A stretch of 64,000 nucleotides of DNA, from contig JAVCCB010000050.1 in assembly GCA_030765685.1 (NCBI GenBank), positions 11,735 through 75,734 on the forward strand. The letters run 5' to 3'. The position numbers were made by a program. Shown piece after piece: positions 51,001 to 63,000 of this stretch. Source of the DNA: Candidatus Tantalella remota. Lineage in GTDB: Bacteria; Omnitrophota; Gorgyraeia; Tantalellales; Tantalellaceae. Numbering within the stretch: the first letter of the stretch is position 1; every line of letters starts with the position of its first letter.

Positions 51001-54000
51001 ATTGTTGCCGGAAAGCGAATGTGATTATTGCAACGGTGCTGGATATCATAGTAAATATGGTGCTGACAGAGAGGAGTGTAGCTTTTGTCGTGGACGAGGC
51101 GTGGGGCGATACAACTTCAGTGAGGAAACCGTCAAGCATTTTGTGGATTTCTTGCGGGACTGTGACGGGTTTAAGGTACCAGTTAAAATATTACCGTAGT
51201 CAAAGGAGCGTTATGAAAATAGCTATTTATGCGAGGGTCTCAAAGAACGATGATTCTCAGGATCCTCAAAATCAGTTACAGCCCTTGAGAGATTACGCCA
51301 AAGCGTTAAAGGGAATAGTGGTTGAAGAGTATGTTGATTTAGCAAGTGGAGGAGGCAGTGCTGATAGAGTTAGGTTTTTGCAGATGCTTGAGGATGCTGA
51401 CAAACACAAATTTGATCTGGTATTAATATGGGCATTAGATCGTTTTTCGAGAGAAGGTATCTCAAACACGCTTGGATATCTCGATCGATTAAAGAGGAAC
51501 GGTATAGCCTTGAAAAGTCTGCAGGAGTCCTGGCTTGATACCCGGGACGAATCTTTAGGGCAGCTGTTAATAGCTATCTTCAGTTGGGTTGCCGCTCAAG
51601 AGAGATTAAGAATAGTAGAAAGAACGAAGGCAGGTTTGAAGAAGGCGAAAGCCAACGGCAAACGATTGGGCAGACCCAAAGGATCCAAGGACAAAAAGGT
51701 AAGAAGAAAATCTGGATATAATATGAGGTGGGTGAATAATAAATAATAGGAGGATATTTAGAATGGGTTTGCATAGTAAAATATTGATGGTTCGAAAGGT
51801 GAATTAGTTTAGAGTAAGGCACTCTAAACCCTAAAAATGAGGAGGAGAAAGATGTATGATTACAGCAATTATTTGAAAGTAGTAGGACCGGCAAATGAAA
51901 AGGAAAGATTTCACAAGAAAGCTCTAGCCATTTCAATTGAACAACCGGAAGGAAAAAAAGAGACATTTTTACTATGGAATATAATGCCCTTGCCCGAGGA
52001 TCTTATTGAACATGTAAATGATGACGATGATCTTGAGGATAATGAGTGTGAAGAAATGTTTTTAAAATATGGTATAACCACTGGACACGACTGGATGGAT
52101 ATGCATTGGGGCATGGTTAACGAACTTGAAAATATTCAAATAAATGGAAATGAATATGAGTATACTTTTGACTCATATGGTGGAGTAATTGCAAGAGGAA
52201 TAATCTCAATTTCACGAATGTTCGAAAGGCTTCATTTTGTATACAAATATCATTCAAGAGATAAGGATAGTTCTGAAGAGGGGTATTTTCTAATTAAAGC
52301 TGGGAAACTTATTAAAGAACGTATAGGGCTCATTGGACAAAAAGAAGTCTGAAAATGGACAAACTCCTAACAATAAATGATCTGTGTGAGTATCTTTCCG
52401 TAAGGCGGAGTACGCTCTACGAATGGACTCACACAGGTTTTATTCCGTGCTACAAGATCCTCAAGGACATTCGCTTTAAGCAATCTGAAATTGATTTAGC
52501 AAGCGGTGGAGGGAGCGCAGATAGAAATAGATTCTTACAGATGCTCGAGGACGCAGATAAGAGAAAATTCGACCTGGTATTGGTATGGGCTTTAGACAGA
52601 CTAAGCAGGGAAGGTATATCAAACACACTCGGCTATCTCGCCCGCTTAAAGAGGAACGGTATAGCCTTGAAAAGCCTTCAGGAATCCTGGCTAGATACCC
52701 GAGATGAATCCTTAGGACAACTTCTCATCGCAATATTCTCCTGGGTAGCAGAGCAGGAGCGCAAAAGAATTGTAGAAAGAACGAAGGCAGGCTTGAAAAA
52801 GGCTATATCGAATGGCAAACGATTGGGCCGTCCCAAAGGGTCCAAGGATAAAAAAGCAAGACGCAAGTCTGGATATAATATGCGTTGGGTAAATAAGAAA
52901 TAATTACCGGTTCTGAGAAAGGTCCTACCCCTTCAAAATCCTTCTAATAAAACCGTTAGAAATCTAGCATTTTAAGTGTTATAATATGGTTTAAAATGTA
53001 ACAAGGTAAAAAAGGAGCTAGAATTTGAAAATCACATCAAGTCAGTTGACTATTGCCCAATTATTAAGTAGCAATAATGAACAGTTTTTTATTCCAGCTT
53101 ATCAACGGCGGTATGCTTGGGGAAATAAACAATTAGTTGAATTGTTTGAGGATATAAATTTACTCGATAAGAATGACTCTCATTTCTTGGGAACTATTTT
53201 ACTCCTTACAGAGTCACATCGGGCTAGTATTAATAGGCTTGAAGTAGTTGACGGGCAGCAAAGAATTATATCGCTATCATTGCTGATAGAGGCGATAAGG
53301 GATAGGTTTGCTGAATTAGATCAACAGGAAATTGTTCAAGAAATAGGGTCATTAATATATTGTCAGGGATTAGATAGGAAGAAACAAAATAAAATCATTT
53401 TAGGTGATCTCGATGAGCCTGACTATTCAAAAGTATTAAAACTCAATAACGAGGAAGATTTGAGTTGTGAAGAAGAAATAAAGAACAAAAAATTGTTAAA
53501 TGCTTATATAGATTTCAAAAAGTGGATAAATGAATTTAGCTATGAAAAACTTAACGAGTATTACTTCAAACTGATTAACAACACAATTGTTGTTAGACTT
53601 GACACGGAGAAGGCAAAAGATGCATATAAGTTGTTTGAAACCATTAATAATAGAGGTTTGAGACTTAGTCCAACGGATATAATTAAAAACTTTCTTTTAG
53701 GACATGCTTCTATGGTAGGAGAAAGCGTTTTAAACGATGTTCGTGAATCGTGGAAAAGTGTAATTGTCAGCCTGGATGGGATAGAAACTGATAATTTCTT
53801 TAGGCAATACTTGATGGGAGTATTGAAAAAGAAGGTGACATTTACCAAACTCATTTCTGAATTCAAAAAATATTATTTAACAACTGTCAAAGAAGCGGAA
53901 ATTCTTCCGGAATATAGGCTATATAATGAGTTTGCGGATTATGATGACGAAGAAGAATATAGTGCAGATGAAGTAGTCGAGGACAATCTACTTGTTGAAG

Positions 54001-60000: not shown

Positions 60001-63000
60001 GGATGAAGACAACAATACATTTATTGTTACGAACCAATATAAAGTAACACGTGGGGTAACAAAGATCCCAGATATGGTTCTTTTGATTAACGGTATTCCT
60101 GTTATTGTTGGTGAGTTCAAAACCCCTGTAAGACCAGCAATATCATGGTTGGATGGGGCTGTGCAGATACATGATGACTATGAGAATAGCATTCCTGAGC
60201 TTTTTGTACCAAACATATTTTCTTTCTCCAGCGAGGGAAAGACTTTTAGATACGGGTCAATCCGTATGCCACTCGAGATATGGGGACCATGGAGGGATGA
60301 ATTAAAAGTCAAAGATGATGAAGTAGCAGGATTAAGGGAAGTAGAAGTAGCAGTTGAAGCATTGCTTAACCCTACAGTCGTCATGGATATTTTAGAAAAC
60401 TTTACTATCTTTGCTACAGATAGTAAAAATCAACGAATTAAAGTAATAGCTCGATATCAACAATATGAAGGTGCTAATCTAATATTGGAAAGAGTCAAAC
60501 AAGGGGTTGTTAAGAAAGGACTTATATGGCATTTTCAGGGTTCAGGAAAATCGCTTCTTATGGTTTTTGTGGCACAAAAATTGCGACATGTTCCTGAGTT
60601 AAAAAGCCCCACGGTTGTTATTATCGTTGATCGCGTTGATCTTGATACGCAGATAACCGCAACATTTAACGCATGTGATGTTCCAAATATTGTAGCTACT
60701 GAGAGCAGAGACGAGCTGGAAAGATTATTGAAACAAGATACACGAAAAATACTTATTACCACGATGCATAAGTTTGCTGAAGCAGAAGGGGTGTTGAACG
60801 ACCGAGAAAACATCATAGCACTTGTCGATGAAGCCCACAGAACTCAAGAGGGTGACTTAGGGAGAAAGTTGCGAGATGCGTTACCAAATGCATTTTTCTT
60901 TGGTCTTACAGGGACCCCGATAAATAAAAGAGACAGAAACACATTCCGCACATTCAGTGCCGAAGAGGATTTGAGCGGTTATTTATCGCGTTATTCGTTT
61001 GAAGAATCCATAAGAGATAAAGCTACACTACCGCTGCACTTTGAACCTCGGCTGTTAGACGTTCATGTTGATAAAGAGCTTCTTGATGCTGGATTTGATG
61101 CTATGACCGAAACATTGACAGAAGAACAACGAGCACAGTTAGTTCAGAAAGCTGGTCAGATGTCAGCGTTTCTAAAAGCACCAGATAGAGTAAGGAAGAT
61201 AGTTGAAGATATTGTTAGCCATTTTAGAGAGAAAATTGAACCACAAGGATTAAAAGCACAGATTGTATGTCCAGACAGGTTTGCCTGTGATCAATATAAA
61301 ACAATATTAGATGAGATTGTTTCTCCAGACGAAAGTGTAGTTGTGATTTCAATCAATAACACGGATACCGATGAGTTTAAGAGGAAATATCGCATGGAGA
61401 GGGATCAACAAGAAAAGGTTTTAGATCGTTTTCGAGATCCCATTGATCCACTAAAATTTGTTATTGTGACATCAAAGCTCCTAACAGGATTCGATGCACC
61501 TATATTGCAAGCCATGTATCTAGATAAATCGATGAAGGACCACAACCTCTTACAAGCAGTTTGCAGGACTAATAGGGTATATAAAGAGAAGTCACATGGT
61601 CTAATTGTTGATTATTATGGTGTTTTTGATAATGTTGCAAAGGCGTTAGAGTTTGACGAGAAATCAGTCCGACACGTGATTACTAATATTGGTAGCTTGA
61701 AAGATCAATTTAAACAAGCGGTTGCTTTATGTCTTATGCATTTCCCAAATGTGGATAGAGGGATTGAGGGATACGAGGGTCTTTTGTTGGCGCAAGAATG
61801 TGTAAATACAAATACTAAAAGAGACGATTTTGCTAAAGATTATAGCTATTTGTCAAAGTTGTGGGAAGCACTATCTCCTGATTCCATATTAAATGACTAT
61901 GAGAAAGATTATCGATGGCTTTCAAAAATATATGAATCTGTCAAACCGACGTCGGGGGATACGGGTCGCTTGTTGTGGCATGCTTTAGGGGCACAAACTA
62001 TAAAGTTGATACATGAACATATTCATGTTGAAAAAATAAGCGATGATTTAGAAAAAATTATTCTTGATGCTGATGTTATTGAAGATCTAATGAAAGCAAA
62101 AGACAGTACAAAGACAAAACTTATTGAAATAGAAATAGTTAATCGATTGCGTAAAAACAAAGGTAAACCAAAATTTCAGGAACTTGGAAAACGACTTGAA
62201 GATTTACGGGATAAAGCTGAACGGGGGTTGATTAATAGCGTTGATTTTCTAAAATCTTTAATCGAATTAGCGAAAGATGTTGTTGCTGCTGAGAAGGAAA
62301 TTGAGGTAGAGCATGAGAAAAAGGGAGCAAAGTCAGTGCTTACAGAATTGTTCTTAGAAGTTCGCACTGAACAGACCCCAGCAATTGTAGAGAGAATCAT
62401 TAATGATATAGATGAAATTGTTAAAGTTGTTCGCTTCCCCGGTTGGCAATCAACCGCATCTGGTGAGCGCGAAGTAAAAAAAGCTATTCGTAAGACTTTG
62501 CTTAAATATAAACTTCACACCGACCAAGACCTTTTTGACAGGGCCTACGGATATATTCGGGAGTATTATTGAGATGATTCCAGTATTCTTCTGTCATATC
62601 TGTGACGCTGGTTGTAATTGTAATTTAGCAGTTAAATTATCACAGAAATTATCTAGAGATCTTGAGGGTATTGAAGCATTTGTAGCTTGTCAGGACGAAA
62701 GATGGAACACTGCTGCTGATTTAAACACATCTGTAGATCAATCATATGTTTTTATCCCGATAATTGGAGATTCTTTTAAAGAGAGCAATAATTGTACTTC
62801 TGAATTAGATCGAGCCAAAGAAAGAAAACAATCCGAGAAATTCCCCCTCATCATCCCAGTAAAAAATAATTGCTCTGACGCACTAATGGTGGACTTGAGT
62901 TTTACGATAGATCAGCAGCATGAGTCTGGTGACAAATGGATCGATTTTTCTTTTGATTCAGAATTTGATTCCAAGTATGAGGATCTTTATAGAAGAATTC

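What the first reader, a model, noticed from the sequence alone, without database searches (positions are those of the whole stretch)
53025..62572. Defence cluster: GmrSD-like nuclease, HTH gene, and a type I RM operon with two tandem full-length HsdM paralogs
A DUF262/DUF1524 nuclease and a small HTH gene precede a tightly coupled operon: hsdM1, hsdM2, hsdS, an embedded ORF, and hsdR. All junctions are 4-nt overlaps or direct abutments. Both HsdM copies keep the AdoMet motif (DP[AT]CG[TS]GGMLL) and the NPP[FY] catalytic motif and are collinear (roughly 50% identity). Standard type I systems have one hsdM. A heteromeric M1M2S methyltransferase, or two methylation activities sharing one HsdS, would be unusual.
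Basis: partly seen in the sequence, partly recalled or inferred. Interest (0 to 1): 0.65.

Follow-up and report, generated by a model that had tools for sequence, protein, structure and literature searches.

The report
Known two-methylase (m4C/m6A) type I system
The two side-by-side methylase genes are real and both look functional, but this is an ordinary member of a type I restriction system subgroup described in 2016, in which one methylase marks adenine and the other marks cytosine.

Summary
GmrSD-like gene, HTH gene, hsdM1, hsdM2, hsdS, a 152-aa ORF and hsdR lie at the stated coordinates, joined by ATGA overlaps or direct abutment. The two HsdM are collinear and 54% identical.

The arrangement is not new. 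It matches the "m4C/m6A two-methyltransferase type I" subgroup (Morgan et al. 2016, PMC5100572; PacII M1M2S crystal structure, Zhu et al. 2022, PMC9613975) on every sequence criterion:
- The upstream M1 has AGEF and NPPF (m6A type).
- The downstream M2, next to hsdS, has AAEF, NPPY, the NSPME loop and the conserved Arg (R19 = PacII R29) (m4C type).
- Each window M is the reciprocal best match of the corresponding PacII chain.
- HsdS TRD1 belongs to the conserved cytosine-recognising TRD family.

In 80 species-level loci, 74 show the same M1...M2-S...R order, and the other 6 are cut off by contig ends. At least 420 species genomes carry an M2 relative.

Its claim of unusualness fails by its own refutation criterion. 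The residual unknowns are minor: the recognition sequence, and the 152-aa orphan gene between hsdS and hsdR. Verdict: new member of a known kind, low interest.

The parts
53025..54845 (+). GmrSD-like (DUF262 + DUF1524) candidate type IV, modification-dependent nuclease. It neighbours the type I system and is not part of it.
   Evidence: Pfam GmrSD_N 1.8e-36 and GmrSD_C 2.7e-22. PADLOC HEC-06/Orf5 models score up to 5e-87. The DGQQR and HLEHIIPQ...N motifs are visible in the sequence. Nearest solved structure is the DUF262 protein 9jfl_B, 2e-15.
54852..55037 (+). Small HTH_17 (excisionase/MerR-like) DNA-binding protein that abuts hsdM1. Inferred to be a transcriptional controller of the operon.
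   Evidence: Pfam HTH_17 4e-14. The MADS1 model scores 37.8 bits against a cut-off of 80, so it is not a MADS member. Homologous HTH genes lie directly upstream of M1 in L091/L092 (75% identity), L090, L049, L073 and L076.
55038..56531 (+). hsdM1, the M1-type (m6A) modification subunit. Diagnostic residues: AGEF 172-175, FYTP, DPACGTGG, NPPF 280-283, K23, G371-T-P-L-S loop.
   Evidence: Best PDB match is PacII M1 (7vru_A) at 548.6 bits, against 489.2 bits for PacII M2. It is 69-89% identical to the full-length M1-type genes of all census loci but one (L082, 62%). Group-specific residues are listed.
56528..58012 (+). hsdM2, the M2-type (m4C) modification subunit. Diagnostic residues: R19 (= PacII R29), AAEF 168-171, FYTN, DPTCGSGG, NPPY 276-279, NSPME 366-370.
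   Evidence: Best PDB match is PacII M2 (7vru_B) at 609.6 bits, against 442.2 bits for PacII M1. AAEF+NPPY are present in 84/84 full-length M2-type genes, and Arg at the R19 column in 84/84.
58009..59211 (+). hsdS with two TRDs. TRD1 (about residues 1-150) belongs to the conserved cytosine-half-site TRD family. TRD2 (about 200-350) is unique. Each TRD ends in a PTLSEQK connector motif.
   Evidence: Pfam Methylase_S. Residues 7-189 match PacII S TRD1 (7vru_C) at 1.7e-35, and TRD2 has no match. Identity to the window across loci is median 41% for TRD1 and 15% for TRD2. The PacII base contacts R75 and R76 are conserved, but H94 is Asp here.
59208..59666 (+). ORF152, an orphan accessory gene overlapping hsdS and hsdR by 4 nt each. 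It has an N-terminal hydrophobic helix. Function unknown.
   Evidence: No Pfam, PADLOC or PHROG hit. Only 10 clusters in 5.8 billion proteins and 37 representative clusters in 1.84 billion. Homologs lie between hsdS and hsdR of M1-M2 operons in all 6 distinct contexts seen. The AF2 model is helical with pLDDT 63.
59663..62572 (+). hsdR, the restriction/translocase subunit. It has a PD...EFK nuclease motif, GSGKS, and DEAH.
   Evidence: TIGR00348 hsdR 530 bits against a cut-off of 284.55. Pfam HSDR_N, SWI2_SNF2 and T1R_D3-like. EcoR124I HsdR matches at 3e-29. Motifs are read from the translation.
62574..64000 (+). Downstream neighbour, cut by the window end: a TIR domain fused to a Dsr1-like C-terminal region. 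It is a separate defence gene.
   Evidence: The reading frame is open for 475 codons. Pfam TIR_2 scores 29.1 bits against a cut-off of 28. PADLOC Dsr1 matches model positions 267-617 at 6e-36.

Best explanation
The locus encodes a complete type I restriction-modification system of the known m4C/m6A 'two-methyltransferase' subgroup, whose prototype is PacII. By analogy with PacII, M1 (NPPF) binds HsdS first through its C-terminal tail and then recruits M2 (NPPY) to form an asymmetric M1M2S methyltransferase. HsdS TRD1, paired with M2, reads a short cytosine-containing half-site, and M2 converts one cytosine to N4-methylcytosine. TRD2, paired with M1, reads the other half-site, and M1 makes N6-methyladenine on the opposite strand. 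Adding two HsdR gives R2M1M2S, which translocates and cuts DNA whose sites lack both marks. The tight ATGA coupling fits stoichiometric co-expression. The sequence and comparative data show subgroup membership, intact motifs and conserved architecture. The m4C/m6A chemistry, the assembly order and the restriction activity in this organism are inferred from the characterised homologues. The GmrSD-like gene upstream and the TIR/Dsr1-like gene downstream are separate defence genes in the same island. The HTH gene is probably a regulator. ORF152 is a lineage-specific accessory gene of unknown role.
For: The published definition is: M1 with AGEF/NPPF upstream; M2 with AAEF/NPPY next to S; R downstream; 45-55% M1/M2 identity; a conserved M2 Arg29; a conserved cytosine TRD1. 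The window meets all of these. M1/M2 identity is 54%. The matches to PacII M1 and M2 are reciprocal best: 548.6 vs 489.2 bits, and 609.6 vs 442.2 bits. R19 aligns with PacII R29. The NSPME loop is present. TRD1 matches PacII TRD1 at 1.7e-35. In the census, 74 of 80 species loci have M1 then M2, and the other 6 have at most 1149 nt of upstream DNA. M2 and S are adjacent in 77 of 79 loci. The M1 and M2 groups separate cleanly, with 29 group-specific columns. HsdR is intact.
Against: There is no methylation, expression or restriction data for this organism, which is an uncultured Omnitrophota MAG. TRD1 has Asp where PacII has the base-contacting His94, so the half-site need not be CCC and cannot be predicted here. 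PacII M2 can also methylate adenine in vitro, so m4C output is strongly suggested but not proven by sequence. The window's M1 and M2 are only 53.5% and 56.8% identical to PacII M1 and M2.
Confidence: 0.92

Rival explanations
1. One of the two hsdM genes is a decaying or inactive duplicate, and the working enzyme is a canonical M2S homodimer complex.
For: None beyond the bare fact of duplication. M2 has FYTN where canonical HsdM has FYTP.
Against: Both ORFs are full length with intact motif I and motif IV. The P-to-N change is one of 29 positions fixed differently in the M2 group, and so is a conserved group-specific difference rather than a sign of decay. M1-type and M2-type genes are each conserved at a median of 75-81% identity across phyla, while staying 42-54% identical to each other. 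The pair co-occurs in 74 of 80 species loci. In characterised systems, M2+S alone gave no detectable modification and M1+S alone only partial m6A.
Confidence: 0.02
2. The enzyme is an M1M2S heterotrimer, but here both subunits make m6A. M2 would act as an adenine methylase at a TRD1 half-site that contains adenine.
For: PacII M2 methylates adenine when the target base is swapped in vitro. The window's TRD1 differs from PacII at the base-contacting H94, which is Asp here.
Against: TRD1 clearly belongs to the conserved cytosine-TRD family: 1.7e-35 to PacII TRD1, with R75, R76, Y78, Q79 and K81 conserved. All 10 characterised two-M systems give m4C at the TRD1 half-site. M2 keeps the NSPME loop, which is proposed to narrow the pocket for cytosine.
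Confidence: 0.05
3. The two M genes belong to two separate systems, so that M1 is an orphan or belongs with the upstream GmrSD/HTH module, as in a MADS-like system.
For: The HTH and both M proteins give weak hits to the MADS1 and MADS2 models.
Against: The MADS scores are far below their cut-offs: 37.8 against 80, and 81.6 and 51.9 against 720. M1 overlaps M2 by 4 nt. The M1-type gene accompanies M2-S-R regardless of what lies upstream.
Confidence: 0.01

Closest known systems
PacII and the m4C/m6A two-methyltransferase type I R-M subgroup (Morgan et al. 2016 NAR, PMC5100572; Zhu et al. 2022 Nat Commun, PMC9613975; PDB 7VRU/7VS4)
   Same: The gene order M1(NPPF)-M2(NPPY)-S-...-R is the same. 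So are AGEF versus AAEF, the M2 Arg29 equivalent, the NSPME loop, 54% M1/M2 identity, and a conserved cytosine-type TRD1 paired with a unique TRD2. An extra ORF between S and R was seen in 1 of the 10 characterised systems.
   Different: The host phylum is Omnitrophota. Identity to PacII M1 and M2 is only about 54-57%. TRD1 has Asp at PacII H94, and TRD2 is unrelated, so the recognition sequence is new and unknown. The system carries a lineage-specific 152-aa orphan gene and an upstream HTH_17 gene.
Canonical type I R-M (EcoKI, EcoR124I; M2S1 / R2M2S1)
   Same: The domain families are the same for HsdM (HsdM_N + N6_Mtase), HsdS (two TRDs plus coiled coil) and HsdR (PD-(D/E)xK nuclease plus SF2 motor). 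The overall logic of bipartite site recognition and translocation-coupled cleavage is the same.
   Different: Canonical systems have one hsdM gene, whose product is used twice, and they make m6A on both strands. This locus has two diverged paralogues with fixed, group-specific active-site differences.
GmrSD-family type IV restriction enzymes (DUF262/DUF1524; relatives include BrxU and SspE)
   Same: The upstream 606-aa protein has both domains and their signature motifs.
   Different: It is only a neighbour of the type I system. Its substrate is unknown, and the closest solved relative matches at only 2e-15.

Membership tests
m4C/m6A two-methyltransferase type I R-M subgroup | Two co-oriented hsdM genes, with the NPPF gene (M1) 5' of the NPPY gene (M2) | tested here: met
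   M1 at 55038-56531 has NPPF and M2 at 56528-58012 has NPPY.
m4C/m6A two-methyltransferase type I R-M subgroup | M2 lies directly upstream of hsdS, and hsdR lies 3' of hsdS | tested here: met
   M2 and S overlap by 4 nt. R follows S after one 152-aa ORF. The same order occurs in 77 of 79 census loci.
m4C/m6A two-methyltransferase type I R-M subgroup | Pocket motifs: M1 has AGEF and M2 has AAEF | tested here: met
   M1 reads KKAGEFYTPR and M2 reads HTAAEFYTNR. In the census, 72 M1-type genes have AGEF and 84 M2-type genes have AAEF.
m4C/m6A two-methyltransferase type I R-M subgroup | An Arg equivalent to PacII M2 R29 is conserved in M2 but not in M1 | tested here: met
   Window M2 R19 aligns with PacII R29. 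Arg is present in 84/84 M2. M1 has Lys in 69/71, and the window M1 has K23.
m4C/m6A two-methyltransferase type I R-M subgroup | The M2 active-site loop reads N-S-P-M-E, against G-T-... in M1 | tested here: met
   M2 reads FYNSPMEAC (366-370) and M1 reads FYGTPLSAC. Column G371/N366 is group-specific.
m4C/m6A two-methyltransferase type I R-M subgroup | M1 and M2 are 45-55% identical, and each is closer to its own group than to the other | tested here: met
   Identity is 54%. PDB hits to PacII M1 and M2 are reciprocal best. Median within-group identity is 75-81%, against 50% between groups.
m4C/m6A two-methyltransferase type I R-M subgroup | HsdS TRD1 belongs to the conserved cytosine-recognising TRD family, and TRD2 is variable | tested here: met
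   TRD1 matches PacII TRD1 at 1.7e-35 and TRD2 has no match. Median identity to the window across loci is 41% for TRD1 and 15% for TRD2.
m4C/m6A two-methyltransferase type I R-M subgroup | m4C is made on one strand and m6A on the other strand of a bipartite site | not testable with these tools
   This needs a SMRT or nanopore methylome, or cloned expression.
m4C/m6A two-methyltransferase type I R-M subgroup | The subunits assemble as a 1:1:1 M1M2S complex and restrict unmodified DNA with HsdR | not testable with these tools
   Only the intactness of all four genes could be shown.
Canonical single-M type I R-M (M2S1) | A single hsdM gene supplies both M subunits | tested here: not met
   There are two diverged hsdM paralogues, and both are conserved across loci.
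MADS (methylation-associated defence system) | MAD1 HTH and MAD2 methyltransferase score above the NCBIfam cut-offs | tested here: not met
   MAD1 scores 37.8 against 80. MAD2 scores 81.6 and 51.9 against 720.
GmrSD-family type IV nuclease (gene 53025-54845) | An N-terminal DUF262 domain (DGQQR) plus a C-terminal DUF1524 His-Me finger domain | tested here: met
   Both Pfam domains score above their cut-offs. The motifs are visible. Activity is not testable.
Dsr1 (gene 62574 onward) | An N-terminal SIR2 effector plus a Dsr1 C-terminal region | tested here: not met
   The N-terminus is TIR, not SIR2. Only Dsr1 model positions 267-617 match. The gene is truncated by the window end.

The most novel reading that the evidence does not exclude
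Two readings remain open. The Asp-class TRD1 (Asp at PacII His94, shared by about 40% of census loci) might specify an m4C half-site outside the three published ones (CCC, GCC, TCY). Separately, the translationally coupled 152-aa membrane-anchored orphan between hsdS and hsdR might be a new functional accessory of the R-M complex, for example a modulator or an abortive-infection back-up in the manner of PrrC-type insertions, and not a passenger gene.
Probability: 0.15. Interest if true: 0.35.

Novelty: new member of a known kind. Interest (0 to 1): 0.12.

Why it matters
It matters little beyond correct annotation. Automatic pipelines label both genes 'class I SAM-dependent DNA methyltransferase', so recognising the NPPF/NPPY pair predicts that this Omnitrophota genome carries N4-methylcytosine in a bipartite motif. 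That is useful for methylation-based binning and for host-virus linkage in metagenomes. The census shows the subgroup is now far larger than the ~300 systems reported in 2016 and spans many phyla. It also yields a set of 29 group-specific residues that could sharpen m4C versus m6A prediction. None of this changes current understanding of type I systems.

Tried and rejected
1. Decaying-duplicate hypothesis: rejected on motif and census evidence.
2. MADS assignment: rejected because scores are far below the cut-offs.
3. Predicting the m4C half-site: I looked in the supplements of Blow et al. 2016 for methylomes of species in my census, but only other species of Pontibacter and Algoriphagus were present. 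None of the ten characterised host species was among the 80 loci returned. TRD1 classes therefore could not be calibrated. I note only, as speculation, that a His-to-Asp switch at a base-contacting residue would fit a C:G to G:C change, that is GCC instead of CCC.
4. ORF152 function: no hit in Pfam, NCBIfam (one spurious sub-threshold hit), PADLOC or PHROGs. It has no similarity to the 151-aa gene at the same position in L002. Longer relatives carry no informative domain; one has an 8xMP membrane domain. The AF2 model has pLDDT 63 and is all helical, so no fold search was run.
5. Island boundary: no direct repeat of the tmRNA 3' end was found within the window, so the far end probably lies beyond 64 kb.
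6. Promoter and terminator scan: counts are no higher than in shuffled sequence. The best plus-strand promoter-like site, 52957-52985, lies in the gap upstream of the GmrSD-like gene.
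Full report
**Observation.** Pfam assigns GmrSD_N+GmrSD_C, HTH_17, HsdM_N+N6_Mtase (twice), Methylase_S, nothing, and HSDR_N+SWI2_SNF2+T1R_D3-like. NCBIfam agrees for hsdR, at 530 bits against a cut-off of 284.55. The junction sequences are TAAATG (HTH/M1) and ATGA at M1/M2, M2/S, S/ORF152 and ORF152/R. The two HsdM proteins align end to end with one gap, at 54% identity and 72% similarity. Both keep motif I (DPACGTGG and DPTCGSGG) and motif IV (NPPF and NPPY).

**Is the tandem pair a one-off?** No. 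The window's M1 is 100% identical to a protein of a Candidatus Tantalella remota MAG (Omnitrophota). The first three neighbourhoods I opened were Salegentibacter sediminis, an Omnitrophica MAG and a JGI metagenome contig. All three showed a second hsdM downstream, followed by hsdS and hsdR, sometimes with an extra gene between the two hsdM.

**Literature.** A search for hsdM1/hsdM2 found Zhu et al. 2022 (PMC9613975), and through it Morgan et al. 2016 (PMC5100572). These papers define a 'non-canonical' type I subgroup with two different M subunits.
- M1 carries NPPF (and AGEF), lies upstream and makes m6A.
- M2 carries NPPY (and AAEF), lies next to hsdS and makes m4C.
- hsdR lies downstream, and extra ORFs are often interspersed.
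- M1 and M2 are 45-55% identical.
- TRD1 of HsdS is a conserved cytosine-recognising domain (half-sites CCC, GCC or TCY), and TRD2 is variable.
- An Arg (PacII M2 R29) is conserved in M2 only.
- An M2 loop, NSPME, replaces GT... of M1.

More than 300 such systems were in REBASE in 2016. Ten had determined specificities and restriction phenotypes. The PacII M1M2S-DNA crystal structure is 7VRU/7VS4.

**Membership tests.** The window's M1 has KKAGEFYTPR and ANPPF. Its M2 has HTAAEFYTNR, ANPPY and FYNSPMEAC. Against all PDB sequences, M1 hits PacII M1 best (548.6 bits, against 489.2 for PacII M2). M2 hits PacII M2 best (609.6 bits, against 442.2 for PacII M1). M2 R19 aligns with PacII R29. HsdS residues 7-189 match PacII S TRD1 at 1.7e-35, while TRD2 does not match. 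Every sequence-level criterion is met. The chemistry itself cannot be tested here.

**Census.** I scanned one genome per GTDB species with an M2 alignment. They come from Bacteroidota, Gammaproteobacteria, Desulfuromonadaceae, Planctomycetia, Atribacterota, Limisphaerales and others.
- All 84 full-length M2-type genes across the 86 loci then held have AAEF+NPPY. 72 M1-type genes have AGEF+NPPF, and the rest are truncated or frameshifted.
- In 74 of the 80 species loci an M1-type gene precedes M2. The six exceptions have at most 1149 nt of DNA before the contig end.
- M2 abuts S in 77 of 79 loci. M1 abuts M2 in only 15 of 74. S abuts R in 29 of 72. The window is thus a compact version of a common plan.
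- Median identities are 81% for M1-M1 and 75% for M2-M2. M1-M2 identity ranges from 42% to 54%. 29 alignment columns are fixed differently in the two groups, including G173/A169, P178/N174, F283/Y279 and G371/N366. The R19 column is Arg in 84/84 M2 and Lys in 69/71 M1.

The duplication is therefore old, and both copies are under purifying selection. That excludes a decaying duplicate.

**Mechanism (inferred from PacII).** M1 binds the HsdS coiled coil first and recruits M2. TRD1 with M2 then methylates a cytosine at N4, and TRD2 with M1 methylates an adenine at N6 on the other strand. These steps are asymmetric and sequential, with hemimethylated DNA preferred. R2M1M2S restricts unmodified DNA. 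For the window, the specific site is unknown. The base-contacting R75 and R76 of PacII TRD1 are conserved, but H94 is Asp. Across the census loci this position falls into four classes: His (33), Asp (31), Thr (10) and Lys (4). I could not calibrate these classes against known specificities.

**Other components.**
- HTH_17 gene. It recurs immediately upstream of M1 in several loci: 75% identity in Ca. Aadella gelida contigs and 37-41% elsewhere. It is probably a regulator. The weak MADS1 hit is far below its cut-off.
- ORF152. It has no family assignment, 10 close clusters and 37 representative clusters in 1.84 billion proteins. Its homologs lie between hsdS and hsdR, overlapping hsdR, in all six distinct contexts seen. 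It is absent from the 86 loci of the census. The AF2 model is a low-confidence helical bundle with pLDDT 63. It is a lineage-specific accessory gene of unknown role.
- GmrSD-like gene. It is a standard DUF262/DUF1524 protein. Distant relatives sit between M1 and M2 in two census loci.

**Context.** smpB (42386-42841) and tmRNA (43028-43409; 167 bits) are followed by a fall in G+C from about 48% to about 37%. Then come a primase, a DUF3987 protein, hypothetical genes, a serine recombinase and a second, N-terminally replaced recombinase copy. The defence genes follow, ending with a TIR/Dsr1-like gene that runs off the window. The cluster is therefore cargo of a mobile island beside ssrA.

**Verdict.** The heteromeric M1M2S idea is correct. 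This is a new member of a known kind, in a phylum not among the characterised hosts, and interest is low.

Noticed in passing
window 62574-64000 (+), runs off the window end: A gene starts 1 nt after the hsdR stop codon ends and was not listed by the ORF tool because it is open-ended. It has an N-terminal TIR domain (TIR_2, 29.1 bits against a cut-off of 28) fused to a region matching PADLOC Dsr1 model positions 267-617 (6e-36). In related locus L090, a separate SIR2_2 gene plus a >1100-aa protein follow hsdR in the same position. That protein is 28% identical to residues 151-400 of the window gene. This suggests an effector swap (TIR for SIR2) in a Dsr1-like module that travels with this type I lineage.
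   Followed up: partly
window 42386-53000: The defence cluster is cargo of a low-GC island (about 37%, against about 48% upstream) that begins right after smpB (42386-42841) and tmRNA (43028-43409). The island carries a PriCT_1/RepB-type primase (43869-44792), a DUF3987 protein (44747-46030) and an M28 peptidase fragment (48665-49345). No attR-like repeat of the tmRNA 3' end lies within the window.
   Followed up: partly
window 51021-51746 and 52355-52903: There are two serine-recombinase (Resolvase) genes sharing a 300-nt direct repeat at 78% identity (51334-51633 and 52491-52790). The second copy lacks about the first 36 positions of the catalytic domain and instead has an HTH_17 domain at its N-terminus. 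It is likely a rearranged or inactivated copy.
   Followed up: partly
window 59208-59666: ORF152 is a 148-152-aa orphan with a conserved N-terminal hydrophobic helix (WLTLxAxxxALFGPY). It is found only in a narrow lineage of M1-M2-S-x-R operons and is always translationally coupled to hsdR. A profile search finds just 37 representative clusters in 1.84 billion proteins, a few of them inside longer proteins, one of which has an 8xMP membrane domain.
   Followed up: yes
census loci L007-L086, e.g. L001 9482-10228, L004 9523-10989, L055 7857-10004: In 54 of 74 species loci more than 500 nt separate M1 from M2. Examples of the inserted genes are DUF4145, an SLFN/AlbA_2-HATPase protein and GmrSD-like nucleases. 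The M1-M2 gap seems to be a hotspot for inserted defence-type genes in this subgroup.
   Followed up: partly
window 47562-47653 and 47742-47833: A 92-nt direct repeat at 80% identity, spaced 180 nt apart, lies in an apparently non-coding stretch of the island between the ORFs ending at 47572 and starting at 48148. It remains unexplained.
   Followed up: no
HsdS TRD1, window 58009-58460; census loci: The residue aligned with PacII S His94, a base contact for the CCC half-site, falls into four discrete classes across 78 HsdS proteins: His 33, Asp 31, Thr 10 and Lys 4. The published m4C half-sites number three (CCC, GCC, TCY). The classes may map onto half-site specificities, possibly including an undescribed one.
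   Followed up: partly
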